64,000 bases of DNA from Candidatus Harrisonbacteria bacterium (GTDB lineage: Bacteria > Patescibacteriota > Minisyncoccia > UBA6257 > 1-14-0-10-44-23): the NCBI GenBank assembly GCA_023255625.1, contig JAHFLF010000002.1, forward strand, positions 39,734 to 103,733. Direction: 5' to 3'. Position numbers and translations under genes: made by a program. The notes under the pieces are model-generated. The model did no database searches. It was not told where the DNA came from and saw nothing but the letters and a program-made list of their open reading frames with translations. Of the stretch, positions 43,328 through 59,847 are shown in pieces (the stretch's first letter is position 1; each line of letters opens with the position of its first letter).

Positions 43328-43369
43328 AATCTTATTCGTATGATTAGAGCGTTCGTATGTTCGTGAACA

Positions 43370-44599: not shown

Positions 44600-44696
44600 A
44601 AACAGGAAAAGCCCGGAGACACTCCATTAAACCCGTCTCAAAGCTCAAGTATTAGTATACCCTACAAAAGCACTTTTGTCCACCAGATGAGTAAAA

Positions 44697-46508
44697 CTAC
44701 CCACGAGCCAGATCCCTATAATCTTCTAACAATTTTGTCAATTTTTCGGCATCTTTTGAAAGCTCCGCCTTACGGATCTCCTCTTGCAGCTCCTTCCGGC
44801 GCAAAGACGCCCCCTCTTTCGAAAGCTCGGCAAAAAGCTGCTCTGTCTCCCCTTTTCCCGGCTCAAACCCGGATTCTAAATAAATCAGGTTGACTATACC
44901 GATAAGCTCCGGAGCCAGTGCGCTATCGCTGATTTGCGTGCCGGTAACCAAATTCTGCGCTAAATATTCCAAAACCGGTTGATACGCACTGGGAAAATAC
45001 TTTTTACTATCCAGCGCCTGCTGCATAACTATTTTATCGCGCAGCGCCAGAGAGAGAATCCGCCGGACTATTCTCTCCAGCCGATTTATGGGCTGATCAA
45101 CGAAAGCCACTGCAGATTTTGGCTCCTCTACCTTTGCGCCGGCCGCCGCCGAGATCTTTACAACATTCATTTCGGCGCTAATCGCCTGCTCCGACAATCC
45201 GGTTCTTGAAGCCAGTAGCTGCAGCCAATGCTGCTGCTCAATAGGACTAGCAATTCCTTTTATTTTTTGCAGCGCCTGCCTAATCCCCTTTTTTAAAATA
45301 GCAAAGTCCCCGCCCCGGCCGCGATCAATTCCGTAATAGTTAAAATAATATTCCATTGCCGGAATTGCTTTACCAATTAATTCGGCGAAGTGGCCCGGCT
45401 TATTCTTTGCAATGTCGGCTGGATCTTTAAGTGTCGGGTCGTTTCCGACGCCTGATGGGTCGGAACCCCGACCTTGCACCGCAAGCGTCGGGGCATACAC
45501 GATCACCTTCGTATTCAAGTCATTTTGCTGCGCCAGATCAATCGTCCGCTCCGCCGCCGCCTTGCCGGCACTGTCGTTGTCAAATGAAAGCACTAAATTT
45601 TCTGCCAGCCGGCGCAGTAGCTTCAAATGCTCATCGGTCAGAGCCGTTCCAGAGGTAGCCACCACATTTTTCACTCCGTCCTGGTAAGTCATTAAAAAAT
45701 CCATCTGCCCCTCGACAAGCACCGCCTGATTCTGTTCGCGCACGCTATTTTTTGTCTTCCAAAACCCGTACAGTAACTTTGATTTCTGAAAAATCGGAGT
45801 TTCCGGCGAATTAACATATTTTCCGACCTCCGGACTTTCTTCGCCTGGTTGGACACGCCCCGTGAAACCAATTACCTTGCCGAAGTGATTATGCAAAGGA
45901 AACATAATCCGGTTTCGGAATCGGTCATAATACATCCCGCGCTCGGTTTTAAAAATAAGTCCGGCTCGTTCAATGTCGGCTGCCGAAAAACCAAGTTTGA
46001 CTAGATGCCGCATCAGATTATCGCTACCCGGCAATGCTACGCCAAGCTCAAATTCGTTGATGGTCTCTTCTTTCAACCCGCGATCTTTCAGATACGCAAG
46101 CGCGGGGTTGCCCGCTGCAGCGGGCAACCCCGCGCCCTCCCACATACTTGCCCGAAAATAATCTTTAGCAATCCGGTTAATCTCGTAAAGCACCTCATAT
46201 TTTTTCTGGTCACTCGTCCCGACTCGCTTTAACTCAACTCCGGCTCGGTCAGCCAAAACTTTCAGCGCCTCGATAAATTCAATATTTTCAAACTGCATCA
46301 AAAATGCAAAAATATCGCCGCCCTTGCCACAACCAAAACAATGCCAAATCTGCCGTTCCGGATTGACCATAAACGACGGCGACTTCTCTTTATGAAAAGG
46401 ACACAGCCCTTTCAAGTTCCGGCCAGCCGGTTTAAGCGCAACATAACCGGCGACAAAATCTTTAACATCTATTTTTTGCTTAATCGCGTCGATAGTTGGG
46501 TCGGCCAT
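44697..46508 (-). CDS. dnaG: DNA primase DnaG
   Basis: CHC2 zinc finger (GLCPFHKEKSPSFMVNPERQIWHCFGCGKGGD); TOPRIM core (VLVEGQMD). Contains two GC-rich palindromic in-frame insertions. Confidence 0.9.
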   Translation of the reverse strand: MADPTIDAIKQKIDVKDFVAGYVALKPAGRNLKGLCPFHKEKSPSFMVNPERQIWHCFGCGKGGDIFAFLMQFENIEFIEALKVLADRAGVELKRVGTSDQKKYEVLYEINRIAKDYFRASMWEGAGLPAAAGNPALAYLKDRGLKEETINEFELGVALPGSDNLMRHLVKLGFSAADIERAGLIFKTERGMYYDRFRNRIMFPLHNHFGKVIGFTGRVQPGEESPEVGKYVNSPETPIFQKSKLLYGFWKTKNSVREQNQAVLVEGQMDFLMTYQDGVKNVVATSGTALTDEHLKLLRRLAENLVLSFDNDSAGKAAAERTIDLAQQNDLNTKVIVYAPTLAVQGRGSDPSGVGNDPTLKDPADIAKNKPGHFAELIGKAIPAMEYYFNYYGIDRGRGGDFAILKKGIRQALQKIKGIASPIEQQHWLQLLASRTGLSEQAISAEMNVVKISAAAGAKVEEPKSAVAFVDQPINRLERIVRRILSLALRDKIVMQQALDSKKYFPSAYQPVLEYLAQNLVTGTQISDSALAPELIGIVNLIYLESGFEPGKGETEQLFAELSKEGASLRRKELQEEIRKAELSKDAEKLTKLLEDYRDLARG

Positions 46509-46618
46509 GCCTTTACTATATCCCTACGCGCCCGCTGGCGCAATAAAAGATTGTAAATTTATGAACCCTGCGCTATGTTGAATCTGTGACGCCTCGCGCG
46601 TCCGGAAAGGAGTCGGTC

Positions 46619-46792
46619 ATGACAAGTTTGCAGTTCTTTGGCGGGATCCTGATTCTGGTGGGAATCCTGCTCTTCCTACTCGGCTACAACCTAGTCGGTA
46701 AGAACGGGGGCGGCGTGATAGCCGGACTCTTCGGCATGCTGTCAGTTGCCTGCGCCGCAATCGGTATGGTGTTTTTCCTTGGGAGGGGCTAA
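46619..46792 (+). CDS. Small hydrophobic protein (57 aa, 2 predicted TM), GC-rich
   Basis: SD GGAAAGGAG 5 nt before the ATG at 46619. MTSLQFFGGILILVGILLFLLGYNLVGKNGGGVIAGLFGMLSVACAAIGMVFFLGRG. Confidence 0.45.
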   Translation: MTSLQFFGGILILVGILLFLLGYNLVGKNGGGVIAGLFGMLSVACAAIGMVFFLGRG

Positions 46793-46944
46793 TGAACCCC
46801 TTGCTAACGATTGCCGGCGTCATCCTGGTTCTCGCTAGTGCCGCTCGTGGCTACAGAGCGGTGTGGCAGGAGGAATACGAGGAGGCGGCTGGATACGCAT
46901 TTCTGTTCCTGGTCGGCGCCTGCTTCCTGGTGGCGGCCCGATGA
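46792..46944 (+). CDS. Small hydrophobic protein (50 aa, 2 TM), translationally coupled
   Basis: ATG overlaps the upstream stop (TAATG). MNPLLTIAGVILVLASAARGYRAVWQEEYEEAAGYAFLFLVGACFLVAAR. Confidence 0.4.
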   Translation: MNPLLTIAGVILVLASAARGYRAVWQEEYEEAAGYAFLFLVGACFLVAAR

Positions 46945-47354
46945 TGAACATCTTCGTGCTCGCACCGTTGTGCATCCTTCCCGTGCTGGTGTTCGGCCTG
47001 ATCATGATCGGGCGCGTGCGAGTTATCTTCCGAACCTGCTACCCGCCCGGGGCAGAGCGCCCACCCTGCATCGTTCGGTGGCCACGACATCGCTTCGAGG
47101 CCTGGTTCTACCTCGCTGTAGGATCAGCGCTGATAGGAACGGCGAGCGCCTGCCTCGTCGGAGTTCTGCTTCTACTCGCAGGCGTCGACCAGGTCCGGCG
47201 AGAAGAGATCTTCTGGTTCCAGAGCGCATGGTGCTGGCTGGCCGGTGGAGGCATCCTGGCGAACCTCTGCGGATTCACCACGCAGCGGTTCGATGGACTC
47301 AATCGTGATTGGACGAAATTCAAGGAGGAACAACATAAGTGCGCGACCAGCTAA
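46941..47354 (+). CDS. Small membrane protein (137 aa, 3-4 TM), translationally coupled (ATGA overlap)
   Basis: MMNIFVLAPLCILPVLVFGLIMIG... The ORF track's longer N-terminus (from 46863) is probably spurious. Confidence 0.4.
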   Translation: MMNIFVLAPLCILPVLVFGLIMIGRVRVIFRTCYPPGAERPPCIVRWPRHRFEAWFYLAVGSALIGTASACLVGVLLLLAGVDQVRREEIFWFQSAWCWLAGGGILANLCGFTTQRFDGLNRDWTKFKEEQHKCATS

Positions 47355-47376
47355 CATCACGCTCGGTCCCGCTTAG

Positions 47377-47425
47377 CTCGAACCCGTCATGCAGACTCGT
47401 CGTCCGCCCGACGGGTTCTGCATTT
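47377..47425 (+). terminator. Hairpin after the small-membrane-protein operon
   Basis: GAACCCGTC ... GACGGGTTC 9-bp stem followed by TGCATTT. Confidence 0.35.
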
Positions 47426-47516
47426 AAAGCTGCCCCTTGCACTTTTTATATATTTCTAGTATTCTATCTCTTATCTTATTCGCATTATTAGCTATCCGCG
47501 TATTAGCGATTACTCT

Positions 47517-47831
47517 ATGAAACACTGTGAAGTTTGCAAAAAGACCTCAATCATGGCCGGCACCAGAATTCTTTTGCGTGGTCACTACAACCCGACCAAC
47601 TGGAGCCGTAAGTACCCGAACCTGCAAAAATCAGTTAATCCGGCCGGCGAAAAAGTTTTTTGCTGCACCGGCTGCATCCGCACCTTTGGCAAGGTAGCAC
47701 GAATGAAAGATAAAAAAGCAAAAGCAATTGTTGCTGCAGCTGCGAAAGCCGCTGCGCCGAAGCCAGTTGCAAAGCCCGCCGCTCCAGCGAAAGTAAAGAA
47801 ACCGAAAGCCGAAAAGAAAGCGGCAAAGTAG
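47517..47831 (+). CDS. rpmB: Ribosomal protein bL28 with Lys/Ala-rich C-terminal tail
   Basis: C-x2-C...RKYPNLQK...C-x2-C pattern like bL28 (KRRFLPNLQ). Tail AAAAKAAAPKPVAKPAAPAKVKKPKAEKKAAK. Upstream TTGCAC-17-TATTCT promoter-like; downstream hairpin ATCCCT/AGGGAT with T-run at 47858-47892. Confidence 0.6.
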   Translation: MKHCEVCKKTSIMAGTRILLRGHYNPTNWSRKYPNLQKSVNPAGEKVFCCTGCIRTFGKVARMKDKKAKAIVAAAAKAAAPKPVAKPAAPAKVKKPKAEKKAAK

Positions 47832-48081
47832 TTGGAAAAAAATCAAAGTAAATAATCAAAATCCCTTTGCCAGACGGCGAGGGATTTTTGAATGCTGCAG
47901 AATACTAAATATCACTTATTATTACGGCCGTGATAATAAGTGATATTTGAATAAAAAATAATTTTAGAAAAAATATTTTTGTTGCGGCCAACCCGTCAAT
48001 AAGCTATTCTGTAGTCAAAACTTAAATTAAAACAGCTTGTCTAACTAATTGAATTCGCGCTGACAAGTCGTAGGCAGATAA

Positions 48082-48152
48082 CGGGATGTGGTGTAGTGGT
48101 AGCACGCGTGGCTGGGGGTCATGCAGTCCGGGTCCGATTCCCGGCATCCCGA
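48082..48152 (+). tRNA. tRNA-Pro (anticodon GGG)
   Basis: Hand-folded: acceptor CGGGATG/CATCCCG, D-arm GTGT-AGTGGTA-GCAC, anticodon stem CGTGG/TCATG (2 G-U) with loop CTGGGGG, T-arm CCGGG-TCCGATT-CCCGG, discriminator A. The GC-rich island starts immediately 3'. Confidence 0.75.
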
Positions 48153-48414
48153 CCTTTAAATAAATTATGACGGGTAAATATATGGCAGACTCAGTTTCGG
48201 CTGATCCCTTCAGGGTTGTCAGCTTTTCGGCTACCTGCTATGTTGGGGTAGCGAGCCAGAAGCTCTGGCTTCTGTCCTCGCTACCCCGTCGTGCAGAATA
48301 GGCAAAAAGCTGCACAACGCGGTGTAAAGATACTTTTGAGACGGGTTCTGGAGTAAGATAAAATTTCGGTTGTTCGGCCACCGAAATTAAAGTGCCGACT
48401 TAGGGAGATTCCCG

Positions 48415-48849
48415 ATGCAGACGCATGAGCCACTTTTTTGTGTCGCTGGCGGATTTCCCGCTGCAACAATCGCCTGTTTCGGTCCGACCGCGACGGCACA
48501 TTTCGTCGAGATGACCGCAGTAGAGGCGGTCGGCTGGATCCGCGCCAAGGACACGGCAACACTGAAGCTCCTTTGGCGATACGGCCCAGAGGAGTCGCTG
48601 CTTCGTGAATTCATGGCTGGTCAAGGCCTGGCCGACCTGCTCAAGGGACGCGATCGCCCAGACCGTCTGAACGGCAGCCGCTTCGAACGGCTCGAGGCGA
48701 TCATCGTCTTTCGCACCGAAAGCGGGGCTGTCCGTATTCGTCTGTTGACAATGGAGCCAACCTGTCCCCTCGACTCTGAAGAAGAGCCGACGGTCGAGGT
48801 TCAACTGCCACCAGAGGAGATCGCTGACATCAACCAACTCGGCGAGTGA
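48415..48849 (+). CDS. Hypothetical protein (GC-rich island)
   Basis: GGGAG SD 8 nt before the ATG. Competing minus-strand ORFs exist in this high-GC stretch, so the frame choice is tentative. Confidence 0.3.
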   Translation: MQTHEPLFCVAGGFPAATIACFGPTATAHFVEMTAVEAVGWIRAKDTATLKLLWRYGPEESLLREFMAGQGLADLLKGRDRPDRLNGSRFERLEAIIVFRTESGAVRIRLLTMEPTCPLDSEEEPTVEVQLPPEEIADINQLGE

Positions 48850-48964
48850 GTAACCTCGCCAACCGCACCAGGGGCCCCGACGCAAATGCGCTCGGGGCCC
48901 TCGGACTATTCGGTCTCAACGCATAAGCTCCGAAGTCCCGCCAAGATGAGATATAATCGGCTAA

Positions 48965-49033
48965 CCCCCAAACTTTTCCCCAAGATGAGCAGGGATACCT
49001 TTTACTGCTCCCTTTGGGGAAAAGTTTGGGGGG
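48965..49033. repeat. Core-conserved palindromic element, copy 1 (+ orientation)
   Basis: Arm ccccaaacttttcccc, core CAAGATGAGCAGGGATACCTTTTACTGCTCCCTTTGG, arm ggggaaaagtttgggg; the arms are exact reverse complements. Confidence 0.6.
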
Positions 49034-49038
49034 CCGGC

Positions 49039-49103
49039 AACCAAAAATTCCCGCCATAGGGAGCAGTAAATCCTATCTGCTCATCTTGACGGGAATTTTG
49101 GGA
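49039..49103. repeat. Core-conserved palindromic element, copy 2 (- orientation, variant core), convergent with copy 1
   Basis: Arms ccaaaaattcccg / cgggaattttgg; core variant CCATAGGGAGCAGTAAATCCTATCTGCTCATCTTG. Confidence 0.55.
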
Positions 49104-49264
49104 TTGCGCTTTTATTAAAAGACTATTTTTGTTTTTTATATTTCTAAATTAAAATCTTAAAAATCACAAAGGGCCGGACGAAGATCGTCACGGCCCTTGT
49201 GCTGTTGCGAGGACACTTACTTCGGGCGGTCCTCGACTTTGCCCGTTGAGCTTGCGCTCCATGT

Positions 49265-49873
49265 CTACCTCCTCCGTCGCGACTGCGACGGGATCTCGTA
49301 GCCGCCGTAGCGGCTGCGAGGCAGGTTCACGCCTGCCGAGCGGTGGGTCCATGTCCCGCCGCCGTTGCCGCTGTTGTACCCGCCGACATATGCCGGCTGA
49401 TACAGCGGCGTAGAAGCCGACGACGCCCCGATCGCGACGCCGGTCGCATATGACTGCGACTGCGTCGTCGGCTGGGAGTCCGGCGGCTCCCATCCGGCCT
49501 CGATGAGGAGCTTCCTCATCTCGTCCGGCGAAACGCCCCCCAGCCCCGTCGTCGCGGCCGCGCTGACCGCAGCCGCGTTGGCAGGCGTCGGCGTCGCGGA
49601 GTGGGCGCGAATCCATTCCTTGATCAAGGAAGGCGGACCGTTGAACTGGTCTCCTCCCTCCTTGATCAATCGCCTCGTGCCGTCGGGGTCGGTCGAGTTC
49701 GTCGACCCCTCCGAGGAATGCCGCGTGAACTCCACGGATTCCTCGGGCTCGTCCGACTCGACGATCTGAACGAACGTCTGCCGGACCTCTTCCATCGGAT
49801 TCACGGCCCGACACCCCGTCGCGACACCCAGTGTCGTCGCGATGACACACAGAACGATGAGGGGGTTCCTCAT
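49265..49873 (-). CDS. Putative lipoprotein (GC-rich island)
   Basis: Likely start MRNPLIVLCVIATTLGVATGC (lipobox ATGC) with GGAGG SD. Ser/Thr/Gly-rich mature region. Confidence 0.5.
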   Translation of the reverse strand: MRNPLIVLCVIATTLGVATGCRAVNPMEEVRQTFVQIVESDEPEESVEFTRHSSEGSTNSTDPDGTRRLIKEGGDQFNGPPSLIKEWIRAHSATPTPANAAAVSAAATTGLGGVSPDEMRKLLIEAGWEPPDSQPTTQSQSYATGVAIGASSASTPLYQPAYVGGYNSGNGGGTWTHRSAGVNLPRSRYGGYEIPSQSRRRR

Positions 49874-49930
49874 GTTCGTCTCCTTCCGGCCCGTAGGCCT
49901 CCCCAACTGCACTATGCGTTGGTGGAATAT

Positions 49931-49959
49931 ATTATACACCTATTGTATCAAAATGTCAA
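49931..49959 (-). promoter_or_regulatory. Consensus sigma70 promoter TTGACA-17-TATAAT driving the 49265..49873 gene
   Basis: Minus-strand read: tttgacattttgatacaataggtgtataat. -35 region motif ttgacattttgat shared with the other three island promoters. Confidence 0.55.
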
Positions 49960-50000
49960 ATCTAACACCAGCGAATTCAGCAAGTAAGTAAAAGTCCCGA

Positions 50001-50070
50001 GCCCCTAAACTTCCCGCCAAAGGGAGCAGTAAAAGGTATCCCTGCTCATCTTGGCGAGAAGTTTAGGGGC
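50001..50070. repeat. Core-conserved palindromic element, copy 3 (- orientation)
   Basis: Arms gcccctaaacttc / gaagtttaggggc flank the exact complement of the copy-1 core. Confidence 0.6.
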
Positions 50071-50085
50071 TCATTTTATTCATAA

Positions 50086-50292
50086 AAATGAAAAGAGCCG
50101 AGTACCAGTGAAGGTATCCTCGGACTCTTTTCGCTACCGGTATTTCTCGGGTCTTCCTGCCCGCGTTCCCACCGGTAGGAACAACTCTCACTGGAACGAA
50201 CTTTCACCTCTCAATCTGGGAATACTCCTTTTCTTCAGCTACTCTCAACCAGATTCCCCTTTGGTTGAGTGGCTGTGGCGCGAAGTTGCGCC
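50086..50292 (-). repeat. 207-bp duplicated element, copy 1, starting 1-2 nt after a stop codon and ending in a hairpin plus U-run
   Basis: About 99% identical to 52250..52456. On the transcribed strand it begins with a GGCGC-AACTTC-GCGCC hairpin, contains CTCAACCA/TGGTTGAG and GTTCC-TACCGGTGG-GAAC hairpins, and ends GAGTCCGAGGATACC..GGTACTCGGCTC + TTTT. The ORF-track proteins 50051..51097 and 52221..52619 on the plus strand just translate it. Confidence 0.6.
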
Positions 50293-50293
50293 G

Positions 50294-50998
50294 TCAGAGC
50301 CGAGCGAGATCATCGACCAAGCTCTTCGCCAAGTCAGTGTCCCGCACATGGGCATTGATCTGCTCGATCATCTTCGAGAGACCAACGTCCGCGATGAGCG
50401 CCGGATAGCTCCGACGCATCGCCTGCCGCCGATCTTCGGCGACCTTGGGCAGAGGCGGCCTGGACGTGAGAGCTGCGAAATAGCTCTCCGCGTCCTTGCC
50501 GAACGCCTCCAAGGCGGCGTTCTGGACCACCTTCACCTTCGCCGCTGCCTGCGCGTCGGCGAAGTCGCGCATCGCCGCCCGGATCAGATCCGGCGTCTTC
50601 GCCTGCTGCTCGGCCAGGTCCTTGACCTGCGCCGCCAGCGCGACGATGGCCGGGTCGACTCTCGGCGCCTTCTCGAGCGCCTCGAGTCGCTTCTCGAGCG
50701 TGCTCTTGTCGGCGAGCTGCTTCGCCAGCCCGGCGATCTGCGCCTGCAGCTGCTTGAAGGACTCGTCGGACACCTGCGATGCGGCACTCTGTGTGCCGGA
50801 CAGTCTGGCGAGACTCGCCTCCGACGCCGCCAGCCGCGTCTCGAGCCGGTTGATCCCCTCGGTCGCCGCGTCGACGCGCCCGGAGACCTCGTCGGCGTGC
50901 TGACTGCCGCCGCCGAACTGTCCGTAGGAAACCCCCCACGCGACGGCGCCCAGGACCGCGACCGCCCCGACCCACAGAAGAATATTCGTGAGCTTCAT
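50294..50998 (-). CDS. Membrane-anchored coiled-coil protein (GC-rich island)
   Basis: Likely start MKLTNILLWVGAVAVLGAVAWGV (TM anchor) after SD GGAGAGGGAGGG; Ala/Gln/Leu-rich heptad-like remainder. Confidence 0.5.
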   Translation of the reverse strand: MKLTNILLWVGAVAVLGAVAWGVSYGQFGGGSQHADEVSGRVDAATEGINRLETRLAASEASLARLSGTQSAASQVSDESFKQLQAQIAGLAKQLADKSTLEKRLEALEKAPRVDPAIVALAAQVKDLAEQQAKTPDLIRAAMRDFADAQAAAKVKVVQNAALEAFGKDAESYFAALTSRPPLPKVAEDRRQAMRRSYPALIADVGLSKMIEQINAHVRDTDLAKSLVDDLARL

Positions 50999-51079
50999 AA
51001 AACCCTCCCTCTCCGACCCTACTTGGGGTACGGACCAACGGCTTCTGGCCGCTGGCAATCGGGCATTTCCGACCTAAAT

Positions 51080-51109
51080 ATTATAGCATATAAATAGCAT
51101 CTCTGTCAA
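51080..51109 (-). promoter_or_regulatory. Consensus sigma70 promoter TTGACA-18-TATAAT driving 50294..50998
   Basis: Minus-strand read: cttgacagagatgctatttatatgctataat. Confidence 0.5.
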
Positions 51110-51234
51110 GCAATCAAATTGTTATAAAAACGGCACGCCCCCAAAGTACAGTTCTTCTGTATCTCCAGGGGCGCATGCTCGGACTGATTTTGCTTGATTC
51201 CGATGAAGTCCGTAGACATCGGAGCAATTGGTGA

Positions 51235-51900
51235 TCACTTCTTGAAGAAGATCACCGGGTGCGGCTTCTCTGCCGGAGCCGGAGTCGCGTGCGGCTGTCG
51301 GCTCGCCCGAATGAAGTTCAGGACGGCGAAGCCGAGCAGGATCACCAGGACGGCGAAGACAATCCGCAGCGGCCAGCTCGTCCTCGGCTGCTGCTCGACG
51401 ACCTCGTCGGACTCCGGCTGCTCGGAGACCTCCGTCCGATCGTCGGCAGCTGGAGCTGCCGGGCGGCCTCGTCGAAAGACCTCCTGGACAGCCAAGGCGT
51501 CTGGCTGCCTTGCAGCCGCAGGGACTTCGTCGACGAAGGTGTCCTGTCTCGAGATCTCGACCGTCGCCATCCTCGGCTCGGCCGACGACAGGTCCAGGTC
51601 GTCCCCCTCGCCGAAGATCAGGTCGTCGGAGGCATCCTCCGAGTCGCCCTTCTTCCCAGCCGAGAGGTCGATGACGCCCGTCTCCTCTTCGGACCGCACG
51701 CCGGTCAGGTCGAGGTTCTCGACGTCCGCCTTGCGGAACTTCATGACGTCGATCTTCTGACCAGGTTTCGCCGGATCATCCTGCTTCTCGCGTAAGGCGC
51801 GGATCTCTCCCTCCGAGACCAGCCGCTTCAGCTTGGGCTCGTCGATGGTGAGGCGCTTCAGGACCTCGTCGAATGTCAAGAACTCGCCGCTCTTGCCCAT
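51235..51900 (-). CDS. HTH (excisionase/MerR-like), acidic linker and C-terminal TM-anchor protein (GC-rich island)
   Basis: Likely start MGKSGEFLTFDEVLKRLTIDEPKLKRLVSEGEIRALRE (HTH_17-like); Asp/Glu-rich middle; C-terminal WPLRIVFAVLVILLGFAVLNFI helix. Confidence 0.45.
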   Translation of the reverse strand: MGKSGEFLTFDEVLKRLTIDEPKLKRLVSEGEIRALREKQDDPAKPGQKIDVMKFRKADVENLDLTGVRSEEETGVIDLSAGKKGDSEDASDDLIFGEGDDLDLSSAEPRMATVEISRQDTFVDEVPAAARQPDALAVQEVFRRGRPAAPAADDRTEVSEQPESDEVVEQQPRTSWPLRIVFAVLVILLGFAVLNFIRASRQPHATPAPAEKPHPVIFFKK

Positions 51901-51980
51901 GATCGTCTCCCTTCCCTCCGTGCAAAAACACAGAGGAACGCAGCACAACGCCGCGTTTAACGGTCATTTCCGTCAAAATT

Positions 51981-52009
51981 AACATAGCATTTTATTATCA
52001 AAATGTCAA
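51981..52009 (-). promoter_or_regulatory. sigma70-like promoter TTGACA-17-TATGTT driving 51235..51900
   Basis: Minus-strand read: tttgacattttgataataaaatgctatgtt. Confidence 0.45.
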
Positions 52010-52049
52010 ATCTAACACCGCGAGTTCAACAAGTAAGTGCAAAGCCGCA

Positions 52050-52118
52050 AACCTAGAGTTTCCCCCAAGATGAGCAGGGATACCTTTTACTGCTCCCTTT
52101 GGGGGAAACTCTAGGTTT
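52050..52118. repeat. Core-conserved palindromic element, copy 4 (+ orientation)
   Basis: Arms aacctagagtttccccc / gggggaaactctaggttt; core identical to copy 1. Confidence 0.6.
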
Positions 52119-52130
52119 GCGATTCGGAAT

Positions 52131-52202
52131 GAAAACTTAAGATTCTCCCCATAGGGAGCACTAAATCCTATGTGCTCATCTTGGGGAGAATCTTAAGTTT
52201 TC
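52131..52202. repeat. Core-conserved palindromic element, copy 5 (- orientation, variant core with compensatory stem change), convergent with copy 4
   Basis: Arms gaaaacttaagattctcccc / ggggagaatcttaagttttc. Inner stem GAGCAC/GTGCTC replaces GAGCAG/CTGCTC. Confidence 0.55.
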
Positions 52203-52249
52203 TGATTAATCAACATCGGTATGTGTTTTGGGTTAAATACATTCAACAA

Positions 52250-52456
52250 AAAAGAAAAGAGCCGAGTACCAGTGAAGGTATCCTCGGACTCTTTTCGCTA
52301 CCGGTATTTTTCGGGTCTTCCTGCCCGCGTTCCCACCGGTAGGAACAACTCTCACTGGAACGAACTTTCACCTCTCAATCTGGGAATACTCCTTTTCTTC
52401 AGCTACTCTCAACCAGATTCCCCTTTGGTTGAGTGGCTGTGGCGCGAAGTTGCGCC
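52250..52456 (-). repeat. 207-bp duplicated element, copy 2, directly after the TAG stop of 52456..53043
   Basis: One mismatch against copy 1 (tatttttcgg vs tatttctcgg). Confidence 0.6.
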
Positions 52457-53043
52457 TACGGGAGCTGGGCGGTCGCCAGCCCGATCAGCCCACTGTGCTT
52501 GGTGGCCACGACGGCCGCCAGACAGGTGGCGTTGTCGGGAAAGGGCTTGCCGCCGTTGCCCACCCTGCGGAACTTCCGCACCAGGAACACCGCTTCGGCG
52601 CTCCTGCCGTCGTCGATGAGCGCCGCGGCCTCGGCGAGCAGCTTGTCCGCGACCGGACCCGCTGCCGGAGCCGACTTCTTCTCGAGGACATCGACCCGCG
52701 CCCCGAGGTCGACGACCTCGTCGGCGATCGCGCCGACGACCGTGGACGATGCCCAGTCCTTGGGGTTGAACCCCGCGGACGACGCCGGCACGGCAGTCTG
52801 CGCGGCGACCGGAGCGGTGGCAGAGGCCGCCGGCGCAGGGGCCGCCACCGCCACCGGCTGGCTCACGACCGGCGTCGGCAGTGTCGCAGCCGGAGCCGCC
52901 ACGACAGCCGCCGGCGTGGCGGCAGTCGCCTGCTGCGGGCACGAACCCGCAGTCGGATCGGCGCTGACGCCGATCCCGAACACGCTCCGACATCCTCCCG
53001 CCGCGAGCACCGCGGCGAGCACGACCAACCTTCGCGTCTGCAT
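52456..53043 (-). CDS. Putative lipoprotein, Ala/Pro-rich (GC-rich island)
   Basis: MQTRRLVVLAAVLAAGGC signal/lipobox; PAAVVAAPAATLPTPVVSQPVAVAAPAPAASATAP linker; SD GGGAGGAG. Confidence 0.5.
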   Translation of the reverse strand: MQTRRLVVLAAVLAAGGCRSVFGIGVSADPTAGSCPQQATAATPAAVVAAPAATLPTPVVSQPVAVAAPAPAASATAPVAAQTAVPASSAGFNPKDWASSTVVGAIADEVVDLGARVDVLEKKSAPAAGPVADKLLAEAAALIDDGRSAEAVFLVRKFRRVGNGGKPFPDNATCLAAVVATKHSGLIGLATAQLP

Positions 53044-53123
53044 CGTTCGATCTCCTCCCGGGGTTTTACCCCGTTCTAATGGACCCGCCCGACCCTCGCT
53101 GGGTCAGTCCGAATCGCCTAAAA

Positions 53124-53152
53124 TATATAGCATATTGCAATAAAAATGTCAA
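53124..53152 (-). promoter_or_regulatory. sigma70-like promoter TTGACA-17-TATATA driving 52456..53043
   Basis: Minus-strand read: tttgacatttttattgcaatatgctatata. Confidence 0.45.
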
Positions 53153-53191
53153 ATATCGTTCTATTGAGTTCAAAACTAGGCCAGCATTTAG

Positions 53192-53263
53192 CCAATGCAA
53201 AATCCGCACCAAGATGAGCAGGGATACCTTTTACTGCTCCCTATGGTGCGGACTTTGCATTGG
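53192..53263. repeat. Core-conserved palindromic element, copy 6 (+ orientation); a degenerate partner lies at about 53271-53300
   Basis: Arms ccaatgcaaaatccgcacc / ggtgcggactttgcattgg (1 mismatch); core CAAGATGAGCAGGGATACCTTTTACTGCTCCCTATGG. Confidence 0.55.
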
Positions 53264-53391
53264 CTGTCTCGCCAAATAGATCTTATCTGCTCACCTTGGG
53301 GAGAAGCTTGGGGCAACTGCTCTAGCCAAAATGACCGCTCTATAGTTCAATATTGCATTTCTGTTAGATTTTCAAATAAAAACTTAAATCT

Positions 53392-53425
53392 CCATGTTAC
53401 AGCGTACTAGTACGCTGTAACATGG
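53392..53425. repeat. Perfect 34-bp palindrome
   Basis: ccatgttacagcgtac-ta-gtacgctgtaacatgg with no flanking T/A run; lies between the island and the leuS terminator. Confidence 0.6.
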
Positions 53426-53463
53426 CTAGGAAATAAACTGAAGTAAAAAATGAGCGACAAGAT

Positions 53464-53520
53464 AAAAAATTACGGGATTTTGGCAATAGAACCCCGTTTG
53501 CCAAAATCCCGTAATTTTTT
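53464..53520 (-). terminator. Bidirectional intrinsic terminator downstream of leuS
   Basis: 23-bp perfect inverted repeat aaaaaattacgggattttggcaa / ttgccaaaatcccgtaatttttt with A/T runs on both sides. Confidence 0.65.
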
Positions 53521-53540
53521 ATTGCCCGCCAAAACAAAAA

Positions 53541-55964
53541 TCAAATAATTAGATTAATCAGCCGGTCTGGCACAAAGATCACTTTCTTCGGAGCGCCGCT
53601 CACCCATTTTTTAATACTTTCTTGCAAAAGAGCCAACTCAATCGCCTCGGCTTGAGTAATCCCCTTTTGTGCCTGTATAGTCCCACGCACCCGGCCGTTC
53701 ACCTGAATAATTAAATCAAAAGTATGCTCGATAATAAGCGAGGGATCAAAGGAGGGCCAGGGCTGTTGGCACAGTAGTAACGAATCGCGAGTAGCGAGTA
53801 GCGAGTTTAATTCTTCAGTGATATGCGGAGCGAAGGGCGACAAAATTTTCAGGAATTTCTGCCAATCTTCATTTGTAATCTGTAATTTGTAATTCGTGAT
53901 TTGATTTATGAATATCATCATCGCAGAAACAGCTGTGTTAAACGACATGCTCTCAATGTCTTCTGAAACTTTTTTGATGGTCTTATGCAGTAAACGAACC
54001 ACTTTGGTATCACTCGTGCTCACCCGTGCCTCACTTGTGCCCACATGTATCCCTATCTTCCATATCTTCTCCAAAAACCTGGCCGTACCTAATACGCCAT
54101 GGTTATCCCACGCCGCCGCTTGATTAAATGGTGCGATAAACAAAATGTAGAGCCGCAGGGCGTCAGCACCAAACTCTTTAACAAAATCATCCGGGTTGAC
54201 AATGTTGCCAACGGACTTGCTCATCTTAGCTCCATCGCTGGCAAGAATAGTCCCCTGCGCCGTTCGCTTTTGATACGGTTCTTTGACCGGTACAAGCCCC
54301 TGATCGTACAAAAATAAATTCCAAAAACGGGAATAAAGTAAATGTAGCGTAACATGCTCCATGCCGCCGTTGTACCAATCCACGGGCAGCCAATAAGATA
54401 GTTTATCAAGTTCCAAGTTCCAAGTTGCAAGTGAGACAGGATTCTTAAAAGCATTCGGACTCAAAAGATACGCCATGTAGTACCACGAAGAACCGGCCCA
54501 GTTGGGCATAGTGTCGGTCTCGCGCTTGGCCGGCCCCTTACACTGCGGGCACTTCGTATTTACCCATTTCGTCATTGTTGAAAGCGGCGACTCGCCGTTG
54601 TCTGTGGGCTGATACTTTTCAACTTTAGGCAGCTTTACGGGTAAATCTTTTTCAGGCACCGCAACCCAGCCGCACTTTGCGCAGTTAATAAGCGGGATCG
54701 GTTCACCCCAATATCGCTGGCGGCTAAAAACCCAGTCACGCAGTTTATAGGTAACTGTTTTTTTGCCACCGGTAATTGCCAATGCTTCATCAAAGGAGAT
54801 GAGCGGCTTATCAACAATCGGCAACTTGAATGTCTCTGCGAAGGCCCGGTCGCGCTCGTCATGTTGCGGCACTGCCATAATAGCTCCGGTTCCATAAGCG
54901 ACGAGCACATAATCGCCTATCCATACCGGGATCTTTTCTTTTGTCGCCGGATTAATAACTTTAATGCCTTTTAGCTCAACTCCGGTTTTTGCTTTCCCTT
55001 CCGAGGATCGGTCAAGATCGCTCTTCAGCTTTGTTTCTGCAATGTACTCTTGAACCTCTTTATAATTTGCAATTTGCAATTTAATTTTCTCGATAATTGA
55101 ATGTTCCGGCGCAAGCACGAGATAGGTCGCTCCGGAAATAGTGTCCGGCCGGGTGGTGAAGACCTTGATTAACTGGATTGCCACGCTACGCCCGCCAGAG
55201 GCGGGCAAGCTCGCAATGACAAGCGGGAATTCAATTTCCGCTCCCTCGCTGCGTCCAATCCAGTTTTCTTGCTGCGCTTTTATCTCCGGCAGATACTCAA
55301 CCTCTTTCAGCCCTTCAAGCAGTTTATCGGCATAAGCCGTAATTTTCAGCATCCATTGCTCCTTCTCACGCTGCTCAACTGCAGTGCCACATCGTTCGCA
55401 CTTGCCGCTAATAACTTCTTCGTTCGCCAGACCAATTTTATCTTTTGGACACCAGTTAATATTGACCCGCGCCTTGTAAGCCAGTCCGGCCTTAAATAAT
55501 TGCAGAAAAATCCACTGCGTCCATTTGTAATACTGCGGATCGGTCGTATTCACCTCGCGACTCCAGTCAAAAGAATACCCAAGCGACTGTAGCTGTTTAC
55601 GAAAATTTGTAGTATTTTGTTTGGTCGCAGTCTGCGGCGGAATACCAGTTTTAATCGCATAATTTTCAGTCGGCAGGCCAAAAGCGTCCCAACCCATGGG
55701 AAAAAGCACATTGTAACCTTCCATACGCCGCTTGCGGGCAAGCACATCAAAAGCCGTATAGGAACGCAGGTGGCCCATATGCATGCCCGCGCCAGATGGG
55801 TATGGAAATTCAACCAGGGCGTAGTACTTCTCCGACGCTTGCGGCGCAAGGTCGGAGCCCCGACCCTCCAGGCGTCGGGGTGGATCATCCTTGGCCTCGA
55901 AAACTTTTTCCGCTGTCCATTTTTTCTGCCACTTTTTTTCTATTTTCTGCGGATCGTAGTTCAT
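53541..55964 (-). CDS. leuS: Leucine--tRNA ligase
   Basis: MNYDPQKIEKKWQKKW start (the ORF-track N-terminus from 56066 is probably spurious). HMGH and KMSKS (AKMSKSVGN) motifs, CP1 editing domain. Contains a GC-rich palindromic in-frame insertion (PPRRLEGRGSDLAPQASE) just before the YPSG motif. Confidence 0.9.
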   Translation of the reverse strand: MNYDPQKIEKKWQKKWTAEKVFEAKDDPPRRLEGRGSDLAPQASEKYYALVEFPYPSGAGMHMGHLRSYTAFDVLARKRRMEGYNVLFPMGWDAFGLPTENYAIKTGIPPQTATKQNTTNFRKQLQSLGYSFDWSREVNTTDPQYYKWTQWIFLQLFKAGLAYKARVNINWCPKDKIGLANEEVISGKCERCGTAVEQREKEQWMLKITAYADKLLEGLKEVEYLPEIKAQQENWIGRSEGAEIEFPLVIASLPASGGRSVAIQLIKVFTTRPDTISGATYLVLAPEHSIIEKIKLQIANYKEVQEYIAETKLKSDLDRSSEGKAKTGVELKGIKVINPATKEKIPVWIGDYVLVAYGTGAIMAVPQHDERDRAFAETFKLPIVDKPLISFDEALAITGGKKTVTYKLRDWVFSRQRYWGEPIPLINCAKCGWVAVPEKDLPVKLPKVEKYQPTDNGESPLSTMTKWVNTKCPQCKGPAKRETDTMPNWAGSSWYYMAYLLSPNAFKNPVSLATWNLELDKLSYWLPVDWYNGGMEHVTLHLLYSRFWNLFLYDQGLVPVKEPYQKRTAQGTILASDGAKMSKSVGNIVNPDDFVKEFGADALRLYILFIAPFNQAAAWDNHGVLGTARFLEKIWKIGIHVGTSEARVSTSDTKVVRLLHKTIKKVSEDIESMSFNTAVSAMMIFINQITNYKLQITNEDWQKFLKILSPFAPHITEELNSLLATRDSLLLCQQPWPSFDPSLIIEHTFDLIIQVNGRVRGTIQAQKGITQAEAIELALLQESIKKWVSGAPKKVIFVPDRLINLII

Positions 55965-56034
55965 GGGAATGAAGTATGGGATAAGAATTATGAAGTATGG
56001 AAAATAAATTCCCGCTGCCCTTAATTCATACTTC

Positions 56035-59840: not shown

Positions 59841-59847
59841 AATAATT

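What the first reader, a model, noticed from the sequence alone, without database searches (positions are those of the whole stretch)
48082..53330. A 5-kb GC-rich island abutting tRNA-Pro(GGG), with consensus promoters, lipoprotein and membrane-protein genes and two structured repeat families
GC content jumps from about 43% to over 60% immediately 3' of tRNA-Pro(GGG) and drops again near 53100, before leuS. Inside are five minus-strand genes with no recognisable enzymatic function: two lipoproteins, a TM-anchored coiled-coil protein, an HTH-acidic-TM protein and one hypothetical. Each is preceded by an AT-rich, near-consensus sigma70 promoter (TTGACA-17/18-TATAAT, sharing the motif ttgacattttgat) embedded in GC-rich DNA, and each is followed by structured repeats. 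No integrase, transposase or att direct repeat is visible. The likeliest explanation is a tRNA-adjacent genomic island acquired from a high-GC donor. For a CPR episymbiont that donor could be its actinobacterial host, which would be remarkable. A degraded prophage or ICE, or an assembly chimera, are alternatives. The perfect consensus promoters are unusual and suggest strong constitutive expression, as with phage early promoters.
Basis: partly seen in the sequence, partly recalled or inferred. Interest (0 to 1): 0.8.

Follow-up and report, generated by a model that had tools for sequence, protein, structure and literature searches.

The report
Planctomycete-type gene cassettes in a Parcubacterium
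A tiny candidate-phyla-radiation (CPR) bacterium carries, just downstream of its leuS gene, a row of foreign high-GC genes for cell-envelope proteins, at least one taken from Planctomycetes; each has its own strong promoter, and related genomes hold different foreign genes at the same spot, which hints at who the unknown host may be.

Summary
Between tRNA-Pro(GGG) and leuS lie four minus-strand genes (B-E) with GC3 of 0.84-0.87, against 0.36-0.61 in the backbone, plus one plus-strand gene (A). Each has its own near-consensus sigma70 promoter. The region also holds a covarying hairpin repeat family and a duplicated 209-nt 3' element.

It is not a chimera. Separate assemblies cross both junctions at 99.99-100% identity.

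The interpretation needs correction:
- The backbone is a Harrisonbacteria-like Parcubacterium, not a Saccharibacterium.
- Gene D is a xenolog of a conserved planctomycete gene: 85-86% amino-acid and 79% nucleotide identity in its N-terminal half, nested inside that family's tree. An actinobacterial donor has no support.
- There is no integrase, att repeat or phage content.
- Three related genomes carry different high-GC cargo at the same leuS-proximal locus, with the same promoter style.
- At a second locus, a conserved promoter or terminator flanks unrelated ORFs.

The best reading is a recombinase-free hotspot of moron-like expression units, repeatedly refilled with planctomycete-type envelope genes.

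Genes C and E have no detectable homologs, and A and B could not be searched at scale. Function, expression and any host link are inferred, not shown.

The parts
48082..48154 (+). tRNA-Pro(GGG), left neighbour of the island.
   Evidence: Found by ARAGORN and Rfam. No copy of its 3' end lies at the far boundary of the island.
48336..48364 (+). Promoter-like site for gene A (TTGAGA-17-TAAAAT, 10/12).
48415..48849 (+). Gene A, 144 aa, GC3 0.64, no recognisable family.
   Evidence: Start codon and Shine-Dalgarno sequence. An independent gene call on this strand in L002. No Pfam, PHROG, NCBIfam or PDB hit. AlphaFold2 model unusable, pLDDT 36.
48965..49032 (.). Hairpin A1: core AAGATGAGCAG, a 12-nt loop, then CTGCTCCCTTTGG.
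   Evidence: (I12).
49041..49102 (.). Hairpin B1: same family, 10-nt loop, opposite orientation.
   Evidence: (I16).
49160..49199 (-). Hairpin followed by a T-run after gene B (terminator-like).
   Evidence: Read from the sequence.
49265..49873 (-). Gene B, 202-aa lipoprotein (lipobox ATGC), GC3 0.84.
   Evidence: No family, viral or PDB match.
49931..49959 (-). Promoter of B, TTGACA-17-TATAAT (12/12). It shares a 24-nt identical module with the promoter of D.
   Evidence: (D13).
49999..50072 (.). Hairpin A2, inverted relative to A1, A3 and A4. It lies 45 nt upstream of the -35 element of B's promoter.
   Evidence: (I8).
50084..50292 (-). 209-nt 3' element, copy 1. It starts right after the stop codon of C and ends in a terminator hairpin plus T-run.
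   Evidence: (D1).
50294..50998 (-). Gene C, 234 aa, N-terminal transmembrane helix plus coiled coil, GC3 0.86. No detectable homologs.
   Evidence: No homolog among 5.8 billion protein clusters. Only a weak Rz-like spanin hit, E = 0.0022.
51080..51109 (-). Promoter of C, TTGACA-18-TATAAT (12/12, with a TG extension).
51235..51900 (-). Gene D, 221 aa: winged HTH, acidic linker, C-terminal transmembrane helix. GC3 0.85. Xenolog of a planctomycete-type family.
   Evidence: About 300 homologs. N-terminal 114 residues 85-86% identical and nested in that family's tree. 79% nucleotide identity over 374 nt starting at the ATG. dN/dS about 0.2. Same domain architecture. Fold similar to BldC, Xis and RacA.
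51981..52009 (-). Promoter of D, TTGACA-17-TATGTT (10/12, with a TG extension).
52046..52121 (.). Hairpin A3, 43 nt upstream of the -35 element of D's promoter.
   Evidence: (I6).
52131..52202 (.). Hairpin B2.
   Evidence: (I9).
52248..52456 (-). 209-nt 3' element, copy 2 (99% identical to copy 1), directly after the stop codon of E.
52456..53043 (-). Gene E, 195-aa lipoprotein (lipobox AGGC) with an Ala/Pro-rich linker, GC3 0.87. No detectable homologs.
   Evidence: No hit among 1.84 billion representative proteins. No PDB hit.
53124..53152 (-). Promoter of E, TTGACA-17-TATATA (10/12, with a TG extension).
   Evidence: and read from the sequence.
53190..53265 (.). Hairpin A4, 48 nt upstream of the -35 element of E's promoter.
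   Evidence: (I10).
53277..53312 (.). Truncated hairpin B3 (one arm only). It marks the right edge of the island.
   Evidence: (D3).

Best explanation
**What it is.** This is a chromosomal hotspot immediately downstream of leuS in a Harrisonbacteria-like Parcubacterium. It holds horizontally acquired high-GC genes for cell-envelope proteins: two lipoproteins, a membrane-anchored coiled-coil protein and a membrane-tethered winged-HTH protein. At least one of them, D, came from Planctomycetota.

**How each gene is organised.** Each foreign ORF keeps donor-type codon usage and a GC-rich leader of 57-81 nt with a strong Shine-Dalgarno sequence. Each is driven by an AT-rich sigma70 promoter at or near consensus, mostly with an extended -10 element. 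Four of the five genes end in a hairpin followed by a T-run; gene A is followed only by a GC-rich hairpin. The locus therefore works as a row of autonomous, probably strongly and constitutively expressed single-gene units, like phage morons, and not as one integrated element.

**What is specific to this genome.** The expression signals sit on repeated modules. One is a palindromic hairpin lying 43-48 nt upstream of three of the promoters. Another is a 24-nt promoter module shared by B and D. The third is a 209-nt 3'UTR-plus-terminator module shared by C and E. These modules have multiplied inside the island.

**How the cargo arrives.** I infer natural transformation plus recombination without a dedicated recombinase. 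I also infer that the encoded surface proteins serve interaction with a planctomycete partner.

**Shown versus inferred.**
- Shown: composition, coding frames, promoter and terminator motifs, repeats with compensatory changes, contiguity, locus recurrence in relatives, and the ancestry of D.
- Inferred: actual expression, route of acquisition, protein function, and any host relationship.
For: **Composition and codon usage**
- GC3 is 0.84-0.87 in B-E against 0.36-0.61 in the backbone.
- The RSCU correlation of B, C and E is 0.12 with the backbone, 0.83 with planctomycete genes and 0.85 with the island of relative L023.

**Ancestry of D**
- D has about 300 full-length homologs.
- All four homologs whose contigs were examined sit in a conserved HisK-x-D-RadC-COX3 (or TPR) context; the three with DNA available (plus two further short contigs) are 70-72% GC, and one is labelled Planctomycetes.
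- The N-terminal 114 residues of D are 85-86% identical to these proteins and nest inside their clade.
- Nucleotide identity is 79% over 374 nt, starting exactly at the ATG.
- dS is about 0.5 and dN/dS about 0.2.

**The locus recurs in relatives**
- L022, L023 and L026 (RpoD 86-88% identical) have GC-rich cargo (GC3 0.76-0.87) directly after leuS, with the same promoter style and mostly different genes.
- The D-like domains of L022 and L026 are each closer to planctomycete sequences (49% and 70%) than to the window's D (37% and 60%).

**Cargo swapping at a second locus (alaS-DeoR)**
- L022 and L023 share a 33-nt promoter at 97% identity, but the leader and ORF downstream are unrelated.
- L023 and the window share a 52-nt terminator hairpin at 90% identity, again with unrelated ORFs.

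**Promoters.** The only two 12/12 consensus sites in 64 kb are in the island.

**Hairpins.** There are 28 pairs, 91.8% of cells are paired, and 16 pairs show changes on both sides. None of 500 shuffles reached these values, and slid controls gave at most 54% paired.

**Contiguity.** L002 and L005 cross the two junctions at 100% and 99.99% identity.

**Background.** Patescibacteria are naturally competent and integrate DNA by homologous recombination (PMC11665869).
Against: - Only D has a traceable donor. C and E have no detectable homolog anywhere.
- The Planctomycetes label rests on one named MAG protein plus GC content and gene context. No other hit carried an organism name.
- dS of about 0.5 to the nearest sampled homolog means the transfer is not very recent, or the true donor is unsampled. 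Yet GC3 has not drifted toward the backbone value.
- High-GC codon usage is not specific to Planctomycetes.
- Promoters and terminators are consensus matches only; there are no expression data.
- The hairpins and the 209-nt element are absent from the relatives and from public genome, metagenome and viral collections. They are therefore not required for the general phenomenon, and their role is unknown.
Confidence: 0.6

Rival explanations
1. A classical tRNA-targeted integrative island, or a degraded prophage or ICE, acquired in one event next to tRNA-Pro(GGG).
For: The segment is next to a tRNA gene and has atypical composition. Each small gene has strong promoters like phage early promoters. 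Gene C gives a weak Rz-like spanin hit (E = 0.0022), and lipoprotein B lies downstream of it.
Against: - No integrase, recombinase or transposase was found among the window ORFs scanned.
- There is no duplicate of the tRNA 3' end.
- There are no other PHROG hits and no viral or plasmid relatives of D or B.
- In relatives the GC-rich genes abut leuS, and native genes (HhH-GPD, MscL) separate them from the tRNA.
- The planctomycete homologs of D are single genes in a core chromosomal context, not in a mobile element.
Confidence: 0.08
2. A native, vertically inherited, fast-evolving surface-protein locus. Its high GC3 would be produced or maintained locally, for example by GC-biased gene conversion in a recombination hotspot or by selection, and not by a foreign origin.
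For: - The same locus is GC-rich in four related genomes, with functionally analogous cargo: a D-like single-pass membrane protein plus lipoproteins.
- There are weak positional similarities: E resembles the L023 201-aa lipoprotein (E = 7e-4 in a tiny local database), and B resembles the L023 163-aa lipoprotein marginally.
- C and E have no homologs, as expected for fast-evolving genes.
- High GC3 persists despite dS of about 0.5 from the nearest homolog of D.
Against: - The window's D is 85-86% identical to planctomycete-type proteins but only 37-60% identical to the D-like domains of its own relatives, and it nests within the planctomycete clade.
- There is 79% nucleotide identity to contigs of 70-72% GC.
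- At the alaS-DeoR locus the ORFs between conserved signals are unrelated in sequence, length and domains.
- A shift of GC3 from about 0.5 to 0.86 by biased conversion alone would be far larger than effects I know of. This point is from my own knowledge and was not tested here.
Confidence: 0.15
3. An assembly or binning chimera that joins CPR and high-GC reads.
For: The composition boundaries are sharp. Short-read assemblies break at the 209-nt repeats.
Against: - Contig L002 runs from the backbone through the tRNA, A, B and hairpin A2 into the 209-nt element at 100% identity.
- L005 runs from the backbone through leuS and E into the element at 99.99% identity, and L001 bridges the middle.
- Identical pieces were recovered from two other samples (L003, L004).
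- AT-rich promoter modules are interleaved with the GC-rich ORFs.
- Three relatives from other projects show the same architecture.
Confidence: 0.02
4. The donor is an actinobacterial host, as in the Saccharibacteria-Actinobacteria pairs the first reader had in mind.
For: High-GC codon usage is compatible with many Actinobacteria. Known cultivated CPR epibionts live on Actinobacteria (PMC11665869).
Against: - The backbone is Parcubacteria (Harrisonbacteria-like), not Saccharibacteria.
- The only named homolog of D is from a Planctomycetes MAG, and the conserved gene context recurs on all homolog contigs examined.
- No actinobacterial match was seen for any island protein.
Confidence: 0.03

Closest known systems
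Phage 'morons': autonomous promoter-ORF-terminator units of deviant base composition inside lambdoid prophages. This comparison is from my own knowledge of Hendrix and colleagues' work.
   Same: Each island gene is a stand-alone unit with its own sigma70-type promoter. Each differs sharply in composition from its surroundings, and four of the five end in a terminator-like hairpin.
   Different: The units are not embedded in a prophage. Here several are arrayed at a chromosomal hotspot that recurs in related genomes. All cargo is high-GC and encodes envelope proteins.
tRNA-associated genomic islands, ICEs and pathogenicity islands.
   Same: The segment is next to a tRNA gene, has atypical GC, and holds accessory genes of unknown function.
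   Different: There is no integrase, no att direct repeats and no conjugation or phage genes. The conserved anchor in relatives is leuS, not the tRNA. Content turns over gene by gene.
Integron gene-cassette arrays.
   Same: Four co-oriented single-gene units are separated by imperfect palindromic elements. Cargo differs between relatives at a fixed chromosomal position.
   Different: No IntI was seen in the window. The hairpins have a conserved centre and variable ends, the reverse of attC sites, and lack GTTRRRY/RYYYAAC boxes (read). Every unit carries its own promoter.
REP/BIME/REPIN elements and promoter-bearing miniature repeats such as Neisseria Correia elements (from my own knowledge).
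   Same: These are short intergenic palindromes, often in inverted pairs. Here they sit at a fixed distance of 43-48 nt upstream of outward-reading promoters, so they are physically linked to expression signals.
   Different: Copies were seen only inside this 5-kb island within the 64 kb and nowhere in public collections. A 31-nt core is identical in four copies, while the stems have diverged with compensatory changes. No RAYT or transposase was seen.
Host-to-symbiont gene transfer in episymbionts, for example predicted genomic islands and gene transfers in Patescibacteria (PMC12455944).
   Same: A reduced CPR genome carries genes from an unrelated phylum. Islands and transfers are reported as common in Patescibacteria.
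   Different: That survey has no occurrence of 'Planctomycet' or of 'promoter' in its main text. Nothing I found in the papers I searched describes promoter-equipped cassettes at a syntenic hotspot.
BldC, Xis, RacA and MerR-type winged-HTH DNA-binding domains (Pfam HTH_17), for gene D only.
   Same: The N-terminal 65 residues of D are modelled at pLDDT of about 85-90 and match BldC (Foldseek probability 1.0, target TM-score 0.70), RacA and mycobacteriophage Xis. Homologs carry PF12728.
   Different: D itself scores below the Pfam gathering cut-off (18.3 against 27 bits). It also has a conserved acidic linker and a C-terminal membrane anchor that these proteins lack.

Membership tests
tRNA-targeted integrative island / ICE / prophage | A site-specific recombinase (integrase) at one end. 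| tested here: not met
   Pfam scans of the island proteins and of about 45 further window ORFs found no integrase, recombinase or transposase.
tRNA-targeted integrative island / ICE / prophage | A direct repeat of the tRNA 3' end at the distal boundary (attL/attR). | tested here: not met
   With 3 mismatches allowed, the 23-nt 3' end of tRNA-Pro(GGG) matches only itself and the separate tRNA-Pro(CGG) gene. No flanking direct repeat was found.
tRNA-targeted integrative island / ICE / prophage | An empty site (tRNA directly next to the flanking core gene) in related genomes. | tested here: not met
   L022, L023 and L026 have other GC-rich genes after leuS, plus native genes before the tRNA. No empty site was seen.
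tRNA-targeted integrative island / ICE / prophage | Phage or conjugation genes. | tested here: not met
   The PHROG scan gave only two weak hits, both for C: an unannotated family (E = 4e-5) and an Rz-like spanin (E = 0.0022). Viral contigs and plasmids hold no relatives of D or B.
Integron cassette array | An IntI tyrosine recombinase with an attI site and the Pc promoter. | tested here: not met
   None was found in the 64-kb window. The rest of the genome could not be examined.
Integron cassette array | attC sites with conserved outer R''/R' boxes (RYYYAAC / GTTRRRY) and a variable centre. | tested here: not met
   The hairpins have an invariant centre and variable outer stems. No GTTRRRY box lies at the ends in the alignment.
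Phage moron | An autonomous promoter-ORF-terminator unit of deviant composition. | tested here: met
   This is met at the sequence level for all five genes, although A has only a GC-rich hairpin and no T-run. Expression was not tested.
Phage moron | Located within a prophage genome. | tested here: not met
   There are no phage genes in or around the island.
REP / BIME / MITE-type repeats | A short palindromic intergenic repeat family. | tested here: met
   There are six full copies and one truncated copy, with 91.8% of cells paired and 16 pairs with changes on both sides.
REP / BIME / MITE-type repeats | Genome-wide dispersal and a cognate transposase (RAYT, TnpA or DDE). | tested here: inconclusive
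   All copies lie within 48965-53312 of the 64-kb window, and no transposase is in the window. The remainder of the genome was not available.
Any Rfam RNA family (for the hairpins and the 209-nt element) | A score at or above the family's gathering threshold. | tested here: not met
   Only tRNAs pass. Below threshold there are only chance miRNA-precursor-like hits to the long hairpins.
Pfam HTH_17 / excisionase-family DNA-binding domain (gene D) | A Pfam match at the gathering score, or the family's fold. | tested here: inconclusive
   D scores 18.3 bits against a cut-off of 27, and TIGR01764 gives 17.4 against 28.8. However, about 300 homologs carry PF12728, and the model matches BldC and Xis folds.
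Planctomycete HisK-x-D-RadC-locus protein family (gene D) | Full-length homology and the same domain architecture. | tested here: met
   Identity is 50-57% over the full length and 85-86% over the N-terminal 114 residues. The HTH, acidic linker, EEPKD..W motif and transmembrane helix are arranged the same way.
Planctomycete HisK-x-D-RadC-locus protein family (gene D) | The conserved genomic context of the family. | tested here: not met
   In the window D is flanked by unrelated cargo (E and C). None of the planctomycete neighbours is present. This is what one expects for a single-gene transfer.

The most novel reading that the evidence does not exclude
This Parcubacteria clade may maintain fixed 'expression slots': a resident strong promoter upstream and a resident terminator downstream, at the leuS and alaS-DeoR loci. 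Genes captured from a planctomycete host would be swapped into these slots repeatedly, without a dedicated recombinase. The cargo would keep host-type codon usage because turnover is fast. The host-like envelope and DNA-binding proteins would be displayed or used to interact with, or mimic, the host. If so, the locus would be a built-in record of host identity for a CPR lineage whose hosts are unknown.
Probability: 0.22. Interest if true: 0.8.

Novelty: new variant of a known kind. Interest (0 to 1): 0.6.

Why it matters
**Host identity.** To my knowledge no bacterial host has been identified for a Parcubacteria lineage; the cultivated epibiont-host pairs cited in PMC11665869 are Saccharibacteria on Actinobacteria. 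A syntenic locus that repeatedly takes in planctomycete-type genes gives a concrete hypothesis. It can be tested by co-occurrence analysis, proximity ligation or FISH.

**Domesticating foreign genes.** The locus shows how a streamlined genome of about 45-50% GC can put genes of 65-73% GC to use. It places them one at a time behind near-consensus promoters. At a second locus it swaps cargo between a conserved promoter and a conserved terminator. This is a recombinase-free counterpart to integron cassettes and phage morons.

**Tools.** The consensus promoters are candidates for CPR genetics. The hairpin family, with its invariant 31-nt core, is a candidate regulatory or structural element.

**Caveat.** If the planctomycete link is wrong, what remains is an ordinary horizontal-transfer hotspot with unusual regulatory tidiness.

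Tried and rejected
**Rfam.** Neither the gathering-threshold search nor the permissive search matched the hairpins or the 209-nt element.

**Hairpin core scans**
- The GTDB species genomes gave 10 hits. All are chance matches in unrelated taxa, with no flanking stems.
- The JGI metagenomes gave one chance hit.
- IMG/VR gave none.

**Protein family searches**
- Pfam, PHROGs and NCBIfam found nothing for A, B, C or E.
- The PDB sequence search found nothing for A, B or E.
- Large-scale homolog searches found nothing for C or E.

**Other negative results**
- D has no match in plasmids, and D and B have none in viral contigs.
- The AlphaFold2 model of A from a single sequence failed (pLDDT 36).
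- The island proteins are not neighbours of D in planctomycete contigs.
- The signal-peptide protein upstream of D in Planctomycetes is not homologous to E or any other cargo protein.
- The 3'UTRs of cargo genes share no motif across genomes.
- The relatives contain neither the hairpins nor the 209-nt element.
- Organism names for further D-family hits could not be obtained.
- The accession numbers do not appear in the paper library.

**Readings considered and rejected.** The attC reading of the hairpins, the spanin pair reading of C plus B (too weak), and the chimera reading.

Full report
**1. The observation**

ARAGORN and Rfam place tRNA-Pro(GGG) at 48082-48154 on the + strand. To its right, GC climbs from about 0.40 to blocks of 0.55-0.75, which end near 53100. 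leuS (53541-56066, minus strand) returns to 0.41-0.49.

The rise is not uniform. GC-rich ORFs alternate with intergenic modules of 0.44-0.52.

Frame-specific composition identifies the real reading frames among many overlapping chance ORFs:

| Gene | Coordinates | Strand | GC3 |
|---|---|---|---|
| B | 49265-49873 | - | 0.84 |
| C | 50294-50998 | - | 0.86 |
| D | 51235-51900 | - | 0.85 |
| E | 52456-53043 | - | 0.87 |

- GC2 in these genes is 0.41-0.59, and each has a GGAG-type Shine-Dalgarno sequence 5-8 nt before the ATG.
- All backbone ORFs of the window have GC3 of 0.36-0.61.
- The fifth gene, A (48415-48849, GC3 0.64), is best read on the plus strand. It has its own promoter and Shine-Dalgarno sequence, and an independent gene call in L002 agrees.
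- B and E have a signal peptide with a lipobox. C has an N-terminal transmembrane helix. D has a C-terminal transmembrane helix.

**2. Promoters, terminators and repeats**

*Promoters*
- A consensus scan finds 12 promoter-like sites in 46400-53600, against 3.1 +/- 1.8 in shuffles.
- My own scan of the whole window shows that the only two 12/12 TTGACA-N17/18-TATAAT sites in 64 kb are those of B and C. D, E and A score 10/12.
- Backbone genes also have sigma70-like sites, at up to 10/12. The island promoters are therefore a stronger version of the resident type.
- The -10 element lies 57-81 nt upstream of the ATG for B-E and 50 nt for A. The GC-rich DNA begins just after it.

*The 209-nt element*
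- It occurs twice at 99% identity (50084-50292 and 52248-52456).
- It begins right at the stop codons of C and E and ends in a hairpin plus T-run.

*The hairpin family*
- There are six full copies and one truncated copy.
- Type A has a 12-nt loop and type B a 10-nt loop. A and B sit as inverted neighbours at three places.
- A 31-nt core is identical in four copies, while the 22-bp lower stems have diverged.
- On the alignment, 91.8% of cells pair and 16 of 28 pairs show changes on both sides. None of 500 shuffles reaches this, and slid controls give at most 54% pairing.
- G-U pairs are almost absent and copies occur in both orientations. That fits a DNA-level or orientation-independent palindrome better than a strand-specific RNA. 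This is inference.

*Links between the modules*
- Type A hairpins lie 43-48 nt upstream of the -35 elements of the E, D and B promoters.
- The D and B promoters share a 24-nt identical module.
- Within the window, the hairpins and this module occur only in the island.
- Neither repeat matches an Rfam family.
- The hairpin core is absent from GTDB species genomes, JGI metagenomes and IMG/VR apart from chance hits.

**3. Not a chimera**

- Exact-protein look-ups recover contigs from other assemblies. L002 covers 39265-50177 at 100% identity, running from the backbone across the tRNA, A, B and hairpin A2 into the 209-nt element.
- L001 covers 50037-52451.
- L005 covers 52311-63043 at 99.99% identity, crossing the leuS-E junction.
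- L003 and L004, from two further samples, cover B.
- Short-read contigs break at the 209-nt repeat, as expected for a repeat of that length.

**4. The backbone**

- The window encodes GroEL, aminoacyl-tRNA synthetases, DnaG, RpoD, glycosyltransferases and an O-antigen ligase-like protein.
- RpoD is up to 79% identical to proteins labelled Candidatus Harrisonbacteria. Other named hits are Parcubacteria or Patescibacteria.
- So the organism is a CPR bacterium, but a Parcubacterium. It does not belong to the Saccharibacteria, the CPR group with known actinobacterial hosts.

**5. The donor**

*Gene D*
- D has about 300 full-length homologs of roughly 210 aa.
- Four contigs carrying its closer homologs were examined, and all show the same context: a histidine kinase, a small secreted protein, D, then RadC and COX3/COX4 (one has a TPR protein before RadC), with type II secretion or pilus genes upstream.
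- The three with DNA available, plus two further short contigs, have 70-72% GC. One is labelled 'Planctomycetes bacterium'.
- Over the N-terminal 114 aligned residues, D is 85-86% identical to these proteins and nests within one of their clades.
- At the DNA level it is 79% identical over 374 nt, and the match starts exactly at the ATG. dS is about 0.5 and dN/dS about 0.2.
- The full architecture is shared, apart from an 11-residue insertion: winged HTH, conserved acidic stretch, variable linker, EEPKD..W motif and transmembrane helix.
- An AlphaFold2 model built with 59 sequences gives a confident winged HTH (residues 1-65) and transmembrane helix. The HTH resembles BldC, RacA and Xis.
- None of D's planctomycete neighbours is present in the island, so D arrived as a single gene.

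*The other genes*
- C has no homolog among 5.8 billion clusters, and E has none among 1.84 billion representatives.
- A and B could not be searched at that scale.
- Codon usage of B, C and E correlates 0.83 with planctomycete genes and 0.12 with the backbone. This is compatible with a planctomycete source but not specific to it.

**6. Relatives change the picture**

| Locus | Relationship | Cargo directly after leuS |
|---|---|---|
| L022 | RpoD 86-88% identical, different project | An IS1595 transposase lies next to leuS; 517-aa and 218-aa genes, GC3 0.79-0.80 |
| L023 | RpoD 86-88% identical, different project | Four genes, GC3 0.83-0.87: two lipoproteins, a 476-aa single-pass membrane protein and a 162-aa membrane-anchored protein |
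| L026 | RpoD 86-88% identical, different project | 625-aa protein with a D-like domain (GC3 0.76) and a 163-aa lipoprotein (GC3 0.85) |

- All three keep the synteny leuS ... tRNA-Pro(GGG), an L28-like gene, dnaG, rpoD, alaS.
- Native genes (HhH-GPD, MscL) separate the cargo from the tRNA there. The conserved anchor is therefore leuS, not the tRNA.
- Every separately transcribed cargo gene or first gene of a pair again has an AT-rich TTGACAtttt...TGcTATAAT-type promoter and a long GC-rich leader.
- The cargo is mostly non-homologous between genomes.
- The D-like domains of L022 and L026 are each closer to planctomycete sequences (49% and 70%) than to the window's D (37% and 60%). This points to separate acquisitions.
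- At a second locus, between alaS and a DeoR-like gene, L022 and L023 share a 33-nt promoter at 97% identity but have unrelated leaders and ORFs. L023 and the window share a 52-nt terminator hairpin at 90% identity, with unrelated ORFs. Cargo is thus exchanged between conserved expression signals.
- The more distant L025 (Harrisonbacteria CG10-like) has different synteny and one gene with GC3 of 0.87.

**7. Most likely mechanism**

The locus is a recombinase-free hotspot of moron-like expression units. The cargo is envelope proteins of high-GC, at least partly planctomycete, origin. In this genome the expression signals sit on repeated modules that have multiplied locally: the hairpin plus promoter, and the 209-nt 3'UTR plus terminator.

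No integrase, transposase, att repeat or phage gene is present. Patescibacteria are naturally competent and integrate DNA by homologous recombination (PMC11665869), which offers a route.

Strong constitutive expression, a surface or host-interaction function, and a planctomycete host are all inferences.

**8. Comparison with known systems and novelty**

- The units work like phage morons but are not in a prophage.
- The array looks like integron cassettes but lacks IntI and attC organisation, and every unit has its own promoter.
- The hairpins resemble REP, BIME or Correia-type repeats, but dispersal and a transposase could not be shown.
- Genomic islands and gene transfers are reported as common in Patescibacteria. 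The survey I read has no occurrence of 'Planctomycet' or 'promoter' in its text (PMC12455944).
- I rate this a new variant of a known kind: a horizontal-transfer hotspot or island.

**9. Limits**

- Donor identity rests on one gene family and one taxonomic label.
- Two of the five genes have no detectable homologs, and two were not searched at scale.
- There are no expression data.
- The rest of the genome, including any recombinase or further hairpin copies, was not available.
- The role of the hairpins and the 209-nt element remains unexplained.

Noticed in passing
window 46586-47360 (+): A second GC-rich patch lies between dnaG and the L28-like gene. It holds three small hydrophobic proteins (57, 50 and 137 aa; GC3 0.71-0.72) followed by a hairpin with a short T-run. 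Small transmembrane-protein clusters with raised GC3 sit at the same position in L023 (7464-7958) and L026 (6241-8046).
   Followed up: partly
window 40081-40527 (+); L022 13999-14535; L023 14344-14949; L026 14578-16156: There is a second cargo slot between alaS and a DeoR-like gene. The window has a 148-aa protein with a C-terminal HTH_17 domain (GC3 0.69), and relatives have unrelated GC-rich ORFs (GC3 0.72-0.86). The promoter is conserved between L022 and L023, and the terminator between L023 and the window.
   Followed up: yes
L022 2436-3239: An IS1595-family DDE transposase gene lies directly after leuS in one relative, at the edge of its GC-rich cargo. It is the only mobility gene seen at this locus in any genome.
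   Followed up: no
proteins P0083, P0092, P0093 (hits); L026 559-2436: Some D-family hits fuse a PHA_gran_rgn domain (PF09650) to a D-like domain that is nearly identical to the planctomycete consensus, and they end in Lys-rich tails. The L026 625-aa protein shares this architecture (51% identity over 238 aa). These hits may be further CPR captures of the same domain.
   Followed up: partly
window 50100-50135 and 52264-52299, compared with hairpin A loops (e.g. 48996-49007): The loop of the terminator hairpin in the 209-nt element (GGATACCTTCACTGG) resembles the type A hairpin loop (GGGATACCTTTTACTG). The two repeat families may share ancestry or a binding partner (read).
   Followed up: no
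window 48944-48960: A partial duplicate of the hairpin 5' core (CCAAGATGAG), followed by ATATAAT, lies just left of hairpin A1. It may be a remnant of another copy (read).
   Followed up: no
window 53392-53425, 53462-53522 and 47907-47948: Three long perfect or near-perfect AT-rich palindromes (17+17, 25+25 and 21+21 nt) lie in the native intergenic DNA flanking the island, after leuS and before the tRNA. They look like bidirectional terminators (I23, I13, I15).
   Followed up: no
L025 6948-9956: DnaG in the Harrisonbacteria CG10-like relative is 1002 aa and has a faint LAGLIDADG_3 hit that splits the zinc-ribbon region. This suggests an intein.
   Followed up: no
window 57616-58191 (-): A 191-aa protein with a PaaX_M / Cas2-like domain lies next to tRNA-Pro(CGG). 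No CRISPR array was noticed nearby.
   Followed up: no
window 47517-47831 (+): A 104-aa Cys-rich protein with a Lys/Ala-rich tail is conserved next to tRNA-Pro(GGG) in all relatives examined (70-94% identity among the relatives' copies). It resembles a divergent ribosomal protein L28 to my eye, but it gives no Pfam hit.
   Followed up: partly
window 53541-56066 (-): The longest leuS ORF begins with a 34-residue hydrophobic, non-LeuS-like extension (MRNAFSELRSEKYELRAAGIYFPYFIILIPYFIP). The true start is probably the internal MNYDPQKIEKKW.
   Followed up: no
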